Origin: Microthyrium microscopicum
Lineage: Eukaryota
DNA length: 64,000 nucleotides
Direction: 5' to 3'
Assembly (NCBI GenBank): GCA_010405405.1
Contig: MU004230.1
Span: forward strand, 1,212,627 to 1,276,626
The translations under genes and the position numbers were made by a program. The notes beneath the pieces are model-generated. The model was not told where the DNA came from, searched no databases, and worked only from the letters and a program-made list of their open reading frames with translations. Shown piece by piece: positions 10,602-16,865 of the stretch (positions are counted from its first letter, which is position 1; every line of letters begins with the position of its first letter).

Positions 10602-10853
10602 TCACTTCTTCCAGGCAGGTGGGTTTGCCACCCGATTTTCTCGAGCTTTCTTAGCTTCCTCCCATTCCTCATCCGTCCAACCTGATCCTGTATCGATGTA
10701 TGGTTTGATGGCGTCTTCGTCCAGGCCCCGTTGGAAGTCTCCCCGCCACTCAAGGTATTGAACTATCTCTTCAATAGTATACCAATACCCTGTCCTACTG
10801 AGATCTCCGATCTCCACTGCTTCTTTTTTCTTCGGGCTAATAGTCTTGACCAT
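10602..10853 (-). CDS. Small hypothetical protein (~83 aa)
   Basis: ATG in AAAATGG context; single exon; charged, Trp-rich protein-like composition (GWTDEEWEEAKKARENR). No family recognised. Confidence 0.5.
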   Translation of the reverse strand: MVKTISPKKKEAVEIGDLSRTGYWYTIEEIVQYLEWRGDFQRGLDEDAIKPYIDTGSGWTDEEWEEAKKARENRVANPPAWKK

Positions 10854-11961
10854 TTTGGTGTTGGTTGAGGTATCGTTAGGCAAATTAGCACGAAACTTTG
10901 AAGTATAAAGGGTAGGTACCTTTGTCTCGAGTCTGAGAGTTGCTAGGACTGTAGCTCCAGTCGGCGTGAGGTGCTTGTTTCTTGATGAGGAGCAGGCTTA
11001 TGCTTGGTTGTGTATTTTGCAATCGATTGATAAATTTTTGACTCCTACTTGACCAGAAGTAGTAGCTTGAATGAAGGAAGCAAAGGGGTTTAGTGTATTA
11101 ATTGTGTTTGTTCCCACGAGAGCCGTTGGACGTCTGGGCTGGGAAAGGTTGTATGAAGTTGTCTTGTTCTTGATATAAGGTAGAGAATTGAAGAATGCTT
11201 TGGTCTACTCAGCCAGAAGTAGTATGTCTAATGTCTTGAGAAGTCTTTTTGATGTCTGCTTTTCATCTATCATTGTCCACGGCTATATACCATTTCTTTC
11301 CCACTGAGCAAACAAGCTTCAATCAAAGCCTAGACTTTGGTTCACATACGATACCAACAGGAACTTCTCAAACGATCTGCCAAAGGCTTCTAGAAGGACA
11401 AAACACGCACTGCTGTGATGGAAGCCAACAGTAACGTTCAGCAATCCTAGCTCTCTACAAACAGCTACTCAAGAAGAAATGAGACAAGTAACGGATCACA
11501 AACGTCTAGTGGGATTTGAAGCTGTCTTTTCAACCATGTGTGGATGATTTAGTGTATAGAAGATATTGTCCTGTGATATCTCATGGTCGTTCTTTAAGTC
11601 AGGGCTCACTTCTACGATCTAATTCTTCTGGCTCCCATAAGATCTCATGGGCTTAGTTTCCTTATGTTCATACCCGACATTTACATTATTAGAGTCGGCT
11701 TGATAGTCCGTTGTTGGTTCTTTTCGGATTTATGCATCTTGGTGTTCAATTCTTCACATACATAGGGACACGATATCGTCGTTCAAAGGTCGAAATCAAA
11801 TAAACTCTTTAATTAATATCAGATGAATGACAGATGAAGCAAAGCACTGTTACCCCTACATATAAAAGCAGTTCAAACACTTCTGCTAGACCTCCCCTAG
11901 GTCAAAAACTTCAAGCAATTCGATCATTACAAAGTTAACTAGTCGCCGCTCCTCAACTCAT

Positions 11962-12687
11962 TCAAGGCTCTCCTAACTGCTCCAATCGTTTGTGGATCGC
12001 TGACCAGAGCTCTTTACTTCCCACTTTCTCATCTTGCTGAAAGTCATTCCCAATAGTTGTCTCAATGCTAGACTGTGGGTCACGTTCTTGCCATTTCTTG
12101 TATGTTTTACCAGAGAACAGCTTCAGACCCCAATCCACTGTCAGGTTGTTGGTTTGTATGTGAAAGATGACCTTATTGATTTCAAGGCCTCGAAGATGAA
12201 AGTCCAGCATTGGCTCAAACTTGGGAAACCAGATCGACTTATGAAGTTTGTTCGTGTTCGTACAGGTGTTTGCATAGTAAGTCTGAAATTTTGGCTGTAG
12301 CCAGAATTGAACTTCAGGGCCATTTTGTCCTGGAAAGCGACATGTGGTTACTGTGTTGTTTCCGGTGAACTTCACACCCATTCCTGGAAATAGGTAGGTA
12401 ATCTCTTCCTTTATCTTATGCATTTGAGGTTCACGTACAAGTACACACCATGCCTGAAAAGAAGTCAATGTCTCAATATGGAGAAGCATAATCAGGAACT
12501 CTGGCCGAGAACTTACGACTGTGCCTTGAAAAGGCTCCGATGTGGGCCCCCAAACAAGTGATGCTGCTTGTCCGTGTACACAATACTGGATGCCACGCCG
12601 ATCCAATCTTGTCAACAAAATTTTCACCTGTTCCCACCCTTCGGTCTCATCAAAAATGCTGAGAGGTTGCGGTTCGGCTGGTATCAT
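11962..12687 (-). CDS. Hypothetical protein, paralogue 1 of a tandem nucleotidyltransferase-like family (~220 aa after removing intron 12454-12516)
   Basis: L-x3-L-x4-I-x-Y-C-V-x-G-x2-A-x3-W-G motif; phase-0 intron GTAAGT...TTGAC...CAG just before xW-x-V-L-V; later SIWFPKFEPML. Confidence 0.65.
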   Translation of the reverse strand: MIPAEPQPLSIFDETEGWEQVKILLTRLDRRGIQYCVHGQAASLVWGPTSEPFQGTVVSSRPEFLIMLLHIETLTSFQAWCVLVREPQMHKIKEEITYLFPGMGVKFTGNNTVTTCRFPGQNGPEVQFWLQPKFQTYYANTCTNTNKLHKSIWFPKFEPMLDFHLRGLEINKVIFHIQTNNLTVDWGLKLFSGKTYKKWQERDPQSSIETTIGNDFQQDEKVGSKELWSAIHKRLEQLGEP

Positions 12688-13823
12688 GATGACAGAAGTG
12701 TAGGGAATGATATGTATTATCCTGTGAGACGAGGTAGGGACCGATGATTGCCAACGTGCTACTAAGCCAGAAGTAGAAGCTTGCCTGAAAGCAAGCAGTT
12801 GTTGGATTGAAGGATGCGAGTAATAGCTTTGGATATTCCGAGATAAGAATATTGTACTGCCTGCAGATGCTGTGATGAATGGATAATCTGATATGTGCTA
12901 CCTGACCAGAAGTAGCAGCCTTGTCACGAGAAGAAAATAATCCGAGACAATTGTTTTTGATTCTTGGCTTTCGCCTAGCAGCATTCTCATACATATACCT
13001 TTTCAATGTGTTTCGCGAACAGACGTCAGTGAAGAGTTATTGCTTGTGAGTGGCTTTTTGCAAAACGAGGCCTCCCATGCAATCCATCGAAGTGTTTGCA
13101 GTGATGAAAAGACGACGTGCGATGACTAGAAGTATCAAGCAGTCAATCGACATCTTCCCTCAAACAGCTACTTCGGTATGTATGTAAGCAGAAGGCGGTG
13201 TGTCAATCAAAAAGACATGGGGCTTGCCGCAAGGAATTGATATGCCTGTGTTCCTGTTTGCTTTCCGCGAAGGCTTGTGCTTAGTATGAAGCCGAAGTAT
13301 CCATTGCGAACGAGTGTCATCTGAGCCATGATTTGCGATGGAAGCCAACAGGAGTCTTGGATCTCAAATTATGAGGCCAACACATGTGTTTGCATACCAA
13401 CGATCTCAGCCTCGCTGAATTTTGGATTTAGCTTCTGTACTGTATCATCGTGGGAGAACGATCAGGAAATGATCGGGCTCCAGGGCAGATCATTATGATC
13501 GTGAACTCGATCGTGAACTCAGCTAGGCTAGAACATTATTGAATGACTGACAGGGTATCATCTCATAAAACCGCCATCATAACGCAAAGAAAAGCTACCG
13601 TGTTACCAAAAACATTGGTTCAAATCAATAGTAATCGAAGCACGAGATTGAAATCACCTCCCAGCCTGCCATTAGTTTCAAATGATATCTGTGCATTATT
13701 GAATTCACTACATACAGGAGGGTTCTTGCTTCCCATGGGTACAACCAGTCCACCACGATCAAAGAATAGCTGATCTCAACGGCCACGTCAAGTCATGCTT
13801 CCCGAGAGGCGCTCTATGAGGCA

Positions 13824-14380
13824 TCAAGGGCGGAAGCTCGGTCGAGGGTACTGAAGGAATCTGTTCTGCTGCAAAATCCCTTGCTCAGGATATGGAATCT
13901 TTCGATTGCTCAAGACAATGGTCTTAGATTTAAGAGTGACGAGATCCAGTACAGACTTTAAATCTTGCCAATCGCTACTTATGATCTTCATATCGCGGTA
14001 CAGTGTGATCATATTCAATTTGGCTTTTGATCGATTGTCGGTCGCACCGCGGAGGTCTTGTTCCTTCTTTTTCAATTTGCCCTCATAGTAATAGTCCCGC
14101 AGGTTAGTGGAATATCCGACATCGTCATGTTTCACAAGTAATACCCATTGCTATAGTAGAACATGTTAGCATACGCAGATGGTGGATCTTAGCAATTTAC
14201 AGAGTCAAGTTCACTTACACTGTCCTCGGTTGACATCCCATAATACCGCATTGCTCCAGCTCCAATCACACAACAGGGAGTGCTTCTCGATCGAAGTAAT
14301 TTGACGAGCTTCTCAATGTGCTCTATTCCGTATTCCTCGTCGAATGACCTTGAACCAAGGCTTGATGTCGAAGAACCCAT
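13824..14380 (-). CDS. Hypothetical protein, paralogue 2 of the tandem family (162 aa; intron 14151-14218), predicted N-myristoylated
   Basis: MGSSTS start; YGIEHIEKLVKLLRSRSTPCCVIGAGAMRYYG; GTAAGT...GCTAAC...TAG intron joins ORFs 14189-14380 and 13824-14135 in frame; VLDL...RKIPYPEQGIL. Confidence 0.75.
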
Positions 14381-15172
14381 GGTGTCTTGTACTTGAGGTA
14401 AGTGGATACAAAAAGTAAGTGTCGAGAGTTGTGTTTTGTTTATACTTCTGGTTTTGTGTAAGATGGGATGTGGCTAAGGAGGAATTTATGGTTGGCGTTA
14501 TATACTGGGGTATGGAAATCGTATGTGAGTTTGTGGTGTCGTTGTTGTTGTATCGTAAAATACCAGTGAATTGCCACAGGCGACTTATCGCCAAGGTCGG
14601 GGCAGTGTCTGGAGAGTTCTGAGATATATAATATCTGTGACTATCCTCCGGCTCACCTACCTAATATACTATGCTGCAATTCGCTCTACAAACAAGGGTT
14701 AATAATAAAAGCACGTCTCCGAGCAAACGCAGTACTCTCCAACGACCTTCAGGCACCATAGCTGGCCAAAACTTCGTTTTCTAGACGGAAGGGCCATCAA
14801 GCGTGAACGCCCATGCACAAGCCCCACAAACAGTGTATCTTAAGACATAGGATAACTAAGAGTGAAGGAGTGGTGTCGAACAAGACGATTGTCTACCAAA
14901 CTCATTTTTGACTCGGTCAATCGTCACAACATGGGGTACAGCTTGAAAGCCTGGTGGGTTGTTAGAGATAACTCATATTATTGAGAGTACGTAGAGCATA
15001 TCAGATGGCAGACACGTGAGTAGGTAAAATATCTAATGTATAAGGATTTGGACTAATAGTCAATGGAAATCGTTATGTCAGGTAGTTCATCCACTCATCA
15101 ATATAGCCTAGTACGCCGCCTAAACGGATGACGGAGAAGCTGTGTATTATGTTGGATCAATCGGTATGTTGC

Positions 15173-15742
15173 TCATACGCCACTCATACCACAAAGTGCA
15201 GGGTTTGCCTCCAGGATAACCTTCTTCGGATATGGGATTCCTCGCTCAGGACTGACTTCACAATGTGCATACCCAGCTTCATCGAGATCCAATACACGAG
15301 CTCCGGGCGCGGCCGTCGAAATAAGCTGCGTCCCCTGGCATAACTCCATCATCTTCTCGTGTTGCTTCAGTTGACTGTGGTTCACAAGTCTGATTCTTTC
15401 GGGCCGCATGTTTTTCACAAACTCGCGATACGTTTCTGTTCGGATACGTTTTGCGGTTGCCAAGTCTATATGTCTCACAACCAGTTGCCAATGCTATGAG
15501 TGACATATATTAGCATTGACTGATGATGTTTTGAGTTTCTATGTCGTTTTACTTACGTCGAATCTGCTTCTGATTCCATGGTATCTCATTGCACCTGGAC
15601 CGACTACGCAGCATATAATATTACTCTTATCGAGCGCTTGAACGAGCATTTCGATGTATTCTATTCCATATGGTAGATCGAAGGTCTTGCTATGAGCGGA
15701 AGGAGTCGCTCGGGAAGTCTCTTTAGACCCTCCGCATCCCAT
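15173..15742 (-). CDS. Hypothetical protein, paralogue 3 of the tandem family (168 aa; intron 15494-15556), predicted myristoylated and palmitoylated
   Basis: MGCGGSK start; YGIEYIEMLVQALDKSNIICCVVGPGAMRYHGIRSRFD|HWQLVV; GTAAGT...GCTAAT...TAG intron; VLDL...RGIPYPKKVIL. Confidence 0.75.
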
Positions 15743-16865
15743 GGTGCCTTTACTGTCAATGGGATTATTGATGAGTGAGTATGACAACCCGATCTAGAGC
15801 TGAATGATCTGAGTCGAACTGGACAAGTTTTCTGTAGATGGTTGTGGTGGACGGAAATTATGAAAGTGCAAATCGATACATGATTTGCATGCTTTGAATT
15901 CCATATTCTTATACTGCTTCAGATGTATCACGAAAGAATATCAGGCGAACCTGGGAATCATGTCCGCATGAACAAATTGCTTCCAGCTGACTGATAGAGA
16001 CTCCCCAGCTGGCATACTCTTCCGTTCGTGACTTGGGACTTCTGCATTAACCTTCCTGTTGCAAAGGACATTGTCAAATGATTGTCCGTTATGGAGTGCC
16101 ATGCTTCAGTGACACCCTAGAGCTGAAGTCTATTCGAGGCCAGATGATTAATGCCAAATCGCAGTCTGGAAGAAGGCGGATATATTTGATCTGCTAGATT
16201 TGCCCATTTATAGGTGCCTGTAGCCTATAGACATGACATAAGTGCAATGATGCTACTTACTTCGGCAGAAGTTATTGAGCAGCTATATGACTTTTCTATG
16301 AATATTTTATTTGTTGTTGAAGATTGAATGATGTTTTGGGCCCCTGAATGCTCCGATATGATCGACAGGGATGTAGTTGCAGGAGCGAGCCTACTTTGTT
16401 GGATTTGTCATGATCCAGTCACCCTCTTTCAACTGCCAATCTTCTCAATTCTCGAGAATAATTTATCGACGATCATTGCAGGGCTTGCATTTTTTTGCTC
16501 CAGATCACTACGAGTTCAGCTGCTGCCTAGACTTGTAACTCTCTCGCCAATAATCTGTTACCGCAATTCCCCAAAAGAGAACCAAAAAAATCACGTGCAA
16601 GGAACTGTTGAGATCTTGGTATCCACTTTCTCGGCGATAACAAAGGCTGAAGCCGTCAGCCCCAAAGCCCCTCTACTTCTCCAGTCTACTTCTTTCCCTC
16701 GTCACTCTCAACACCTTTATCTCGACTCCCTTGCGCCCTATCCATTTGTCCTCCAATCCACTGCAAAATCCTTCCAGACCTTACTGCTATCCTCAACCAT
16801 TGTGCTTATCTACCTGCGCACACCAGTATTGGATCCCTTTCGCGCCTCCAACCTCCTGCGCAGCC

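What the first reader, a model, noticed from the sequence alone, without database searches (positions are those of the whole stretch)
11962..15742. Tandem trio of diverged nucleotidyltransferase-like paralogues hidden by splicing
Seen: three co-oriented two-exon genes share (i) an N-terminal block L-x3-L-x5/6-CC/YC-V-x-G-x-(G/A)A-x3-(Y/H/W)G, (ii) a phase-0 intron at the same position, just before x-W-x-(L/V)-(L/V)-V, and (iii) a later (R/K)-x-I-(P/W)-(Y/F)-P-x4-L motif; paralogues 2 and 3 also share YGIE.IE.LV and VLDL. Identity elsewhere is low, so the duplications are old or fast-evolving. Knowledge: hhG-x-x-A-x3-G...R-x-x-D-h is the signature of minimal Pol-beta-superfamily nucleotidyltransferases, including AbiEii/MenT-like toxins. 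Inference: a fungal NTase-fold family, with the canonical DxD degenerate (D-x-W or lost), locally expanded in an accessory island between YEA4 and the Zn2Cys6 gene. Possible roles are toxin, defence/non-self signalling or pseudo-enzyme.
Basis: partly seen in the sequence, partly recalled or inferred. Interest (0 to 1): 0.75.

Follow-up and report, generated by a model that had tools for sequence, protein, structure and literature searches.

The report
Disarmed fungal toxin-fold enzyme trio
Three neighbouring fungal genes are catalytically dead copies of an unnamed nucleotide-transfer-enzyme family whose intact members often sit beside a bacterial-toxin-like gene, which hints at a fungal toxin-antitoxin-like pair with spare decoys.

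Summary
The three genes are real. They share a phase-0 intron (g3 splice seen in an RNA-like contig) and belong to an unnamed, widespread ascomycete family with the MenT/AbiEii (DUF1814) nucleotidyltransferase fold. Intact family members carry R-x3-D-W-E just after that intron and a later DxxD. All three window copies lack both acids (A-W-C, Q-W-V, H-W-Q). g2 and g3 also lack the C-terminal helical domain and begin with myristoylation-type ends (MGSSTS, MGCGGSK). The g2/g3 codons show protein-level purifying selection, so these look like kept pseudo-enzymes rather than toxins or plain decay.

New: the intact family gene is linked to a canonical AbiEii-like gene. In this genome the only intact copy sits about 170 bp from the only PF08843 match. 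21 of 60 metagenome loci (14 distinct, all four orientations) have such a neighbour, against about 0.6 expected. A 2014 paper says fungal DUF1814 proteins lack linked antitoxins.

Best reading: a two-gene fungal NTase module, possibly toxin plus regulator, with the trio as orphan, partly membrane-anchored decoys. Binding and function are untested. The scan's notes held no earlier match.

The parts
12517..12687 (-). g1 exon 1 (57 codons): N-terminal helix and C-V-H-G-Q-A-A..W-G block
12454..12516 (-). g1 putative phase-0 intron, 63 nt, in frame and stop-free; not confirmed, left unspliced by the public annotation
11962..12453 (-). g1 exon 2: starts A-W-C (family D-W-E); keeps the outline of the helical domain (..VDWG.., ..ELW..KRL) without the QS and DxxD residues
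14219..14380 (-). g2 exon 1; begins M-G-S-S-T-S (N-myristoylation-type pattern)
14151..14218 (-). g2 phase-0 intron, 68 nt (GTAAGT..GCTAAC..TAG)
   Evidence: spliced length equals annotated P0094
13824..14150 (-). g2 exon 2: starts Q-W-V, ends 20 residues after IPYP; C-terminal helical domain absent
15557..15742 (-). g3 exon 1; begins M-G-C-G-G-S-K (myristoylation plus palmitoylation-type pattern)
15494..15556 (-). g3 phase-0 intron, 63 nt, skipped in an RNA-like contig
15173..15493 (-). g3 exon 2: starts H-W-Q, ends 17 residues after IPYP; the contig runs on unspliced to 14992
12759..12915 (+). two copies (12759, 12898) of CTAC-N4-CCAGAAGTAG upstream of g1
11045..11222 (+). two more copies (11045, 11205) of the same element, upstream of the 83-codon ORF
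10602..10853 (-). 83-codon co-oriented ORF of uncertain status; shares the upstream element with g1; only a marginal likeness to the trio's first helix

Best explanation
g1-g3 are kept pseudo-nucleotidyltransferases. They derive from an ascomycete family ('DWE family', my label) that has the MenT/AbiEii fold and is often encoded next to a canonical AbiEii-like NTase. I infer that the intact DWE protein is the partner that regulates or neutralises that NTase, as in AbiE/MenAT pairs. The trio would then be orphan copies that can no longer bind metal or NTP and work by binding only, as decoys or inhibitors of an AbiEii-like enzyme (own or incoming) or of its substrate. g2 and g3 would do so from a membrane through an N-terminal lipid. 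Shown: gene models, family membership (clear for g2/g3, weaker for g1), fold, loss of motifs, selection in g2/g3, linkage of the intact family. Inferred: lipidation, toxicity of the neighbour, any binding, the decoy role.
For: Fold: the family model (pLDDT 90.9) matches MenT1 at Z 10.8 (rmsd 3.9, 167 aligned), TM1012 9.9, ANT(2'') 9.5, fungal 5UVD 8.5. The g3 model (pLDDT 83) matches TM1012 at Z 9.0 (rmsd 3.1, 112 aligned) and MenT1 at 7.4. The Atlas model of g1 matches AbiEii/DUF2204/DUF6036 clusters (TM 0.49-0.56 by query). Motifs (hand count): of 37 family rows, 24 have D-[WF]-E, 11 keep one acid, 2 are not alignable there, none lacks both; DxxD in 33 of 37; the trio has none of these acids. 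The equivalent residues are essential in AbiEii and MenT1 (PMC3985639, PMC11375011, passages). Selection (hand count): in 36 core codons of g2/g3, identity is 24, 27 and 13 at codon positions 1, 2 and 3; 15 of 20 shared degenerate residues use different codons. Linkage: the single intact copy and the single PF08843 match of the 37-Mb genome are adjacent; the R-x-T-x-D-[IV]-D pattern lies in 21 of 60 family loci, a permuted pattern in 1 of 88 loci, background 55 per 37.1 Mb. Precedent: the AbiEi C-terminal domain has an NTase-like fold (PMC7319586, passages) and binds AbiEii (10.64898/2026.01.19.700257, section 7).
Against: The trio is not linked to any AbiEii-like gene (0 pattern matches in the window; the pair is on contig C8). 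39 of 60 family loci show no strict pattern, including 7 of the 15 loci of 12 kb or more; in L052 and L063 I saw no partner among ORFs of 90 aa or more. The family is structurally closer to the toxin MenT1 (Z 10.8) than to AbiEi (6.8) or Rv2827c (4.2), so the pair may simply be two enzymes of one pathway. No fungal AbiEii-like protein was shown toxic in the papers I saw (PMC13468701 calls the function unclear). g1 membership is marginal by profile (8.0 bits; hhalign E 0.01). The g3 fold was predicted with a family alignment, which leans it towards that fold, and Foldseek gave it no hit at E <= 0.001. No relatives of the trio were found in other species, so conservation of the pseudo-enzyme state across species is not shown.
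Confidence: 0.45

Rival explanations
1. The trio are kept pseudo-enzymes, but their job has nothing to do with restraining a toxin. They are membrane-anchored scaffolds or sensors (for example of a nucleotide, an RNA end or a foreign protein), and the intact two-gene module is a two-enzyme pathway, such as small-molecule adenylylation like ANT(2'')/LnuA.
For: ANT(2'') and LnuA are among the top structural matches (Z 9.5 and 8.2). The intact family keeps R..D-W-E and DxxD, so it may be an active enzyme. OAS2 is a precedent for a myristoylated NTase-fold protein with a catalytically deficient sensing domain (10.1101/2025.01.28.635220, abstract only). The trio lies away from the pair.
Against: The neighbour has the full AbiEii motif set, including the T of R-x-T-x-D-h-D that is the phosphoacceptor in MenT1/AbiEii regulation, and the linkage survives all four gene orientations.
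Confidence: 0.3
2. The trio are decaying duplicates: real, partly transcribed genes on their way to pseudogenes, with no present function.
For: All catalytic residues are lost, two copies are truncated, no orthologues were found, the region is AT-richer, and the 83-codon ORF may be a fourth, more eroded relic (marginal).
Against: All three frames are open, with intact splice signals, at only 34% g2/g3 identity. Third codon positions are far more diverged than first and second. g2 and g3 end at nearly the same point and still share IPYP..IL..N, so selection continued after the truncation. Both keep Gly2 and Ser6 although the residues between differ.
Confidence: 0.15
3. The trio are active NTase toxins or signalling enzymes with an unusual active site.
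For: The fold is that of MenT/AbiEii toxins; 11 of 37 family rows already tolerate the loss of one acid.
Against: Both metal-binding acids, the upstream Arg in family register and DxxD are gone in all three, and g2/g3 lack the whole helical domain that carries motifs III-IV. Single changes of these residues abolish AbiEii and MenT1 activity (PMC3985639, PMC11375011, passages).
Confidence: 0.05

Closest known systems
DUF1814 NTase toxins: MenT1 (Rv0078A, PDB 8AN4) and AbiEii (PF08843)
   Same: Same fold (family Z 10.8; g3 Z 7.4). The intact family has R-x3-D-h-E and a late DxxD, spaced like MenT1 R37/D41xD43 and D149/D152 (matched by spacing, not by a residue-level superposition).
   Different: The family has G-x-S-A for GG, Glu for the second Asp, no phosphoacceptor Thr and an invariant Q-S where motif III Lys is expected. 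The trio lacks all the acids, and g2/g3 lack the helical domain. No PF08843 hit.
AbiEi / Rv2827c (MenA4) antitoxin C-terminal domains
   Same: NTase-like fold used to neutralise a linked DUF1814 toxin; weak structural match to g3 (Z 5.9 and 5.2) and to the family (6.8 and 4.2); the intact family gene is linked to an AbiEii-like gene.
   Different: No winged-helix domain; scores are lower than for the toxins and in the range where chance matches are common; the trio is unlinked; neutralisation is untested.
Pb27 of Paracoccidioides brasiliensis (PDB 5UVD)
   Same: The one solved fungal protein with this fold among the matches (family Z 8.5; g3 Z 7.4).
   Different: 10-14% identity and no sequence match to the family profile. 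Its function is unsettled; I did not read the structure paper.
ANT(2'')-Ia, LnuA, TM1012 (small NTases)
   Same: Short NTase cores of 156-175 aa, similar in extent to g2/g3 (TM1012 is the top match of g3, Z 9.0).
   Different: ANT(2'') and LnuA are active enzymes; g2/g3 have no metal-binding acids and carry MG..S N-termini.
OAS2 (animal innate immunity)
   Same: Analogy only: an NTase-fold protein with a catalytically deficient domain and N-myristoylation (abstract seen).
   Different: Different NTase subfamily and architecture; OAS2 did not appear among the listed structural matches.

Membership tests
DUF1814/AbiEii/MenT toxins | Pol-beta-type NTase fold | tested here: met
   weaker for g3 alone (Z 9.0; no Foldseek hit at E <= 0.001)
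DUF1814/AbiEii/MenT toxins | Motif I hG[G/S] | tested here: not met
   trio has H-G-Q, I-G-A, V-G-P; motif as defined in PMC3985639
DUF1814/AbiEii/MenT toxins | Motif II R..D-h-D | tested here: not met
   A-W-C, Q-W-V, H-W-Q where the family has D-W-E
DUF1814/AbiEii/MenT toxins | Motifs III (Lys) and IV (+DxxD) | tested here: not met
   region absent in g2/g3; g1 aligns F-H-I-Q to D-L-I-D
DUF1814/AbiEii/MenT toxins | NTP binding, nucleotide transfer, toxicity | not testable with these tools
   needs bench assays
Unnamed ascomycete DWE family (alignment A1) | Match to the family profile: g2 and g3 | tested here: met
   33.3 and 34.0 bits; hhalign probability 95.5 and 92.2
Unnamed ascomycete DWE family (alignment A1) | Match to the family profile: g1 | tested here: inconclusive
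   8.0 bits; hhalign E 0.01 but collinear over 196 columns; Atlas features 0.94-0.95 to unnamed Ascomycota clusters; significant pairwise match to g2
Unnamed ascomycete DWE family (alignment A1) | Phase-0 intron before x-W | tested here: met
   g3 by contig, g2 by annotation, g1 by signals only; profile breaks at positions 65/66 in 46 of 60 loci, 2 run through, 12 partial or unclear
Unnamed ascomycete DWE family (alignment A1) | D-W-E, Q-S and DxxD residues and C-terminal helical domain | tested here: not met
   hence degenerate derivatives, not typical members
AbiEi/MenA4-type antitoxins | NTase-like antitoxin domain | tested here: inconclusive
   Z 5.9 and 5.2 for g3, below the toxin matches
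AbiEi/MenA4-type antitoxins | N-terminal winged helix DNA-binding domain | tested here: not met
   only 12-25 residues precede the NTase core; no Pfam hit
AbiEi/MenA4-type antitoxins | Gene linked to a DUF1814 toxin gene (the trio itself) | tested here: not met
   met only for the intact family gene
AbiEi/MenA4-type antitoxins | Neutralises the cognate toxin | not testable with these tools
   needs co-expression
N-myristoylated proteins | Met-Gly-x-x-x-Ser start (consensus recalled, not from a call) | tested here: met
   g2 and g3 yes, g1 no; 1 of 37 family rows has it
N-myristoylated proteins | Lipid attached, membrane location | not testable with these tools
   needs labelling and a G2A control

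The most novel reading that the evidence does not exclude
Ascomycetes carry an undescribed AbiE/MenAT-like toxin-antitoxin module made of two NTase-fold genes: a canonical AbiEii-like toxin and a DWE-type antitoxin. This fungus adds a separately regulated array of orphan, catalytically dead, partly membrane-anchored antitoxin decoys against such toxins, for example those met on hyphal fusion.
Probability: 0.22. Interest if true: 0.87.

Novelty: new variant of a known kind. Interest (0 to 1): 0.62.

Why it matters
Fungal DUF1814/AbiEii-like proteins are widespread, unexplained, and described as having no linked antitoxin (PMC3985639). A recurrent NTase-fold neighbour gives a direct test: one toxin candidate, one partner and three dead decoys from a single genome can be co-expressed in yeast. 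If the pair behaves as toxin and antitoxin, it would be a eukaryotic counterpart of bacterial AbiE/MenAT systems and a new candidate for fungal cell-death, non-self or selfish-element biology. Even if not, the work puts a Pfam-less ascomycete family into the NTase superfamily and shows a route from enzyme to lipid-anchored pseudo-enzyme.

Tried and rejected
Direct homologue searches with the trio found only the genes themselves: g1, 1 of 413 candidates and 1 hit among 1.84 billion representatives; g2/g3 profile, 2 of 384 candidates. Pfam, NCBIfam and PADLOC name neither the trio nor the family (the NF005458 hit of g3 at 16.8 bits against a cut-off of 250 was dismissed). No solved structure matches the family by sequence.

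Complex prediction of the intact family protein with g3 gave no verdict (score 0.00; my alignments were not used). It is no evidence either way, and the more telling pair (intact DWE protein with the AbiEii-like neighbour) was not run.

RNA: no listed holder is on record as RNA. Run X1 has no contig over g1, g2 or the 83-codon ORF; this is no evidence on their expression, and contig depth cannot rank genes.

A hidden third exon restoring the helical domain of g2/g3 was rejected: the X1 contig is unspliced over 14992-15493, and one downstream frame of g2 gave no profile match; the other frames were read by eye only.

A genome-wide regulon for the CCAGAAGTAG element was rejected: 13 further one-mismatch sites against 19 for the control, none in the contig-C8 pair.

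The 83-codon ORF as a fourth paralogue is not established: no BLASTP alignment, hhalign E 0.024 and 0.22, no Atlas hit, not in the protein collection.

A bacterial or viral branch of the family was not found: the one prokaryote-bin hit is identical over 754 nt to fungal locus L039 and has the intron, so I take it as contamination; no viral hit. A relaxed partner pattern added hits in L051 and L065 that proved spurious; L067 mirrors L051 and L072 was not read.

No tree, formal dN/dS or RIP index was computed because the script machine was lost; codon and motif counts are by hand. Earlier scan notes held nothing relevant.
Full report
Observation. The three co-oriented minus-strand genes are as described: g1 12687-11962, g2 14380-13824, g3 15742-15173. 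They lie between a UAA-family transporter gene (PF08449, 246.8 bits) and a Zn2Cys6 factor gene (PF00172, PF04082). The stretch at 10-16 kb has GC 0.41-0.45, lower than most of the window. Each gene has a phase-0 GTAAGT..AG intron before x-W, of 63, 68 and 63 nt. One contig of run X1 (RNA status is the tool's guess) skips exactly the g3 intron and runs on unspliced to 14992, so g3 ends at its stop at 15173. The annotated g2 and g3 proteins (P0094, 162 aa; P0093, 168 aa; labelled Microthyrium microscopicum by the source) have my spliced lengths. The g1 intron is in frame, and the annotation keeps it (P0001, 241 aa). Splicing it out gives 220 aa and a slightly better family fit, but it is unconfirmed. 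The proteins are related beyond chance: g2-g3 34% over 149 aa; g1-g2 0 of 2000 shuffles; g1-g3 2 of 2000.

Family. The trio has no relatives by direct search. g3 exon 1, however, found a fourth gene on contig C8 of the same genome with the same intron before D-W-E-I-C-V. Its second exon retrieved 90 proteins among 189 candidates; those with names are ascomycete hypothetical proteins and none has a Pfam domain. I aligned 41 of the 90, chosen as near full length (A1). The profile scores g3 34.0, g2 33.3 and g1 8.0 bits. hhalign gives 92% and 96% for g3 and g2, and for g1 only E 0.01 but collinear over 196 columns. The Atlas places g1 with unnamed Ascomycota clusters of 222-256 aa (0.94-0.95) and, by structure, with AbiEii/DUF2204/DUF6036 clusters. 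In 60 metagenome loci of the family, the profile breaks at the D-W-E boundary in 46, runs through in 2, and 12 are partial or unclear; none shows a second family copy at that profile's sensitivity. So the intron is family-wide and tandem arrays are not the rule. The family looks fungal: the one prokaryote-bin hit is a copy of a fungal locus, and there was no viral hit.

Fold and active site. The family model (pLDDT 90.9, pTM 0.88) matches MenT1 best (Foldseek E 8.6e-5; Z 10.8, rmsd 3.9, 167 aligned), then TM1012, ANT(2'')-Ia, the fungal protein 5UVD, MenT3 and LnuA. The g3 model (pLDDT 83, made with a family alignment) returns the same set (TM1012 Z 9.0, MenT1 7.4, AbiEi 5.9), though Foldseek gave no hit at E <= 0.001. 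AbiEii is defined by hG[G/S], R..DhD, a motif III Lys and +DxxD, and changing any of them abolishes toxicity (PMC3985639, passages). MenT1 uses R37, D41xD43, K137 and D149/D152 (PMC11375011, passages). By spacing, the family's R-x3-D-W-E and D-L-I-D are motifs II and IV; it has G-x-S-A and an invariant Q-S in place of GG and the Lys, so even the intact family is atypical. Counting by hand: of 37 family rows, 24 have D-[WF]-E, 11 keep one acid, 2 cannot be aligned there, and none lacks both; 33 of 37 have DxxD. The trio has A-W-C, Q-W-V and H-W-Q. The Asp of g3's D-H-W lies one place too early. g1 keeps the outline of the helical domain but not its polar residues, and g2/g3 stop 20 and 17 residues after IPYP. 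They cannot work like MenT or AbiEii.

Kept, not just decaying. In the 36-codon core of g2/g3 exon 1 (hand count), 21 residues are identical, 15 of the 20 degenerate ones use different codons, and identity at codon positions 1, 2 and 3 is 24, 27 and 13 of 36. Both genes end at nearly the same place and still share IPYP..IL..N, so the truncation probably predates the duplication and selection continued after it (inference). Both begin Met-Gly-x-x-x-Ser, g3 with Cys3. That is the N-myristoylation and palmitoylation pattern as I recall it; only 1 of 37 family rows has it. A 14-base element, CTAC-N4-CCAGAAGTAG, occurs exactly four times in the 37-Mb genome (control 0): twice upstream of g1 and twice upstream of a co-oriented 83-codon ORF. 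It looks like a private regulatory site or a duplicated promoter.

The linked gene. About 170 bp downstream of the intact C8 gene, co-oriented, lies a four-exon gene with L-M-G-G, R-R-T-V-D-I-D, K-L-E-A-Y-R-Q-R and K-D-F-E-D; its last exon passes the PF08843 cut-off (25.6 vs 22.5 bits). It is the only PF08843 match in the genome, next to the only intact family gene found (these are lower bounds). A DNA pattern for R-x-T-x-D-[IV]-D hits 21 of the 60 metagenome loci, 0.6-2.5 kb from the family gene. The background of 55 per 37.1 Mb predicts about 0.6 in their 0.43 Mb, and a permuted pattern hits 1 of 88 loci. Merging apparent duplicates leaves 14 loci: 3 tandem downstream, 2 tandem upstream, 6 divergent, 3 convergent. 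All 14 show the canonical context. In the 5 that I read in full, motif I and the C-terminal K and D..D motifs are present; 4 of the 5 hit NTase Pfam families at E <= 0.1, 1 over its cut-off. The link is partial: 8 of the 15 loci of 12 kb or more have it, and many loci are too short to tell. The trio itself has no such neighbour.

Mechanism. PMC3985639 states that fungal DUF1814 homologues are not linked to putative antitoxins. In bacteria the AbiEi C-terminal domain has an NTase-like fold (PMC7319586, passages), binds AbiEii and blocks it (10.64898/2026.01.19.700257, abstract and section 7). I therefore read the fungal pair as an AbiEii-like effector with an NTase-fold partner, and the trio as orphan, binding-only derivatives of the partner, two of them membrane-anchored (0.45). 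Rivals: kept scaffolds or sensors beside a two-enzyme pathway (0.3), decay (0.15), active toxins (0.05). That the trio are catalytically dead members or derivatives of this NTase-fold family I put near 0.9. Against the antitoxin reading, the family resembles MenT1 more than AbiEi, the trio is unlinked, and no binding or toxicity has been shown.

Novelty. Eight paper searches listed no paper whose title or opening abstract describes this family, the gene pair or such pseudo-enzymes. The library lacks most subscription journals, I opened eight papers in part, and I read no supplements; family tables in comparative-genomics supplements could already list it. PMC13468701 (passages) notes expanded AbiEii-domain proteins in a fungus with unclear function. 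PMC2794190 (passages) has no fungal entry under the terms searched. PMC7913102 (passages) only names Pb27, whose structure paper I did not see. 10.1101/2025.01.28.635220 (abstract) gives the OAS2 analogy. Verdict: a new variant of a known kind, interest 0.62, most of it owed to the testable gene pair rather than to the trio alone.

Noticed in passing
L087:7541-8396 (-), G000:C8 about 1748540-1749395: Four-exon canonical AbiEii-like gene (PF08843 over cut-off) about 170 bp downstream of the intact DWE-family gene; the only PF08843 match in the genome.
   Followed up: yes
L013, L015, L026, L027, L035, L037, L039, L043, L045, L047, L050, L054, L057, L061: The same two-gene NTase pair recurs in 14 distinct fungal metagenome loci in all four orientations.
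   Followed up: partly
window 11045-11222 and 12759-12915: Four exact copies of CTAC-N4-CCAGAAGTAG (ends are inverted repeats), unique to this locus in 37 Mb; a one-mismatch half (CCAGAAGTAT) lies reversed at 14442-14451, upstream of g2.
   Followed up: partly
window 10602-10853 (-): 83-codon ORF, not in the protein collection, with W-x9-L-E-W-R-G in the same spacing as g1's W-x9-L-D-R-R-G; possibly an eroded fourth copy or a small partner gene.
   Followed up: partly
window 11860-11960 (+): A TATAAAAG followed by a CT-rich stretch on the plus strand just past the g1 stop; could drive a transcript antisense to g1.
   Followed up: no
window 15743-16414: The X1 contig that carries spliced g3 extends 670 nt upstream of the ATG over many upstream ATGs, towards the divergent Zn2Cys6 gene: a long leader or a merged divergent transcript.
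   Followed up: no
window about 13715-13780 and 15085-15145 (-): The regions past the g2 and g3 stops show a patch of DNA likeness (reading S-Y-S-L-I and S-F-S-V-I); may be a duplication remnant or an alignment artefact.
   Followed up: partly
P0053, P0057, P0058, P0061, P0062; P0027, P0028, P0032: Subfamilies of the DWE family have already lost one acid (D-W-H/V, E-W-I, N-W-E), so partial degeneration recurs.
   Followed up: partly
P0034: One otherwise intact family member also starts M-G-A-N-S-S, a myristoylation-type end.
   Followed up: no
L088:4232-8893 (-): Tandem array of two or three related, unnamed long ORFs (two end in RVFF.EHARTLDL) a few kb from the C8 pair.
   Followed up: no
L096: A contig in a bacterial genome bin is identical over 754 nt to fungal locus L039, intron included: likely fungal contamination of that bin.
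   Followed up: yes
L052:4216-5438 (-): A protein-kinase-like gene (SRPK-like by eye) lies divergently next to a family gene that shows no AbiEii-like neighbour.
   Followed up: no
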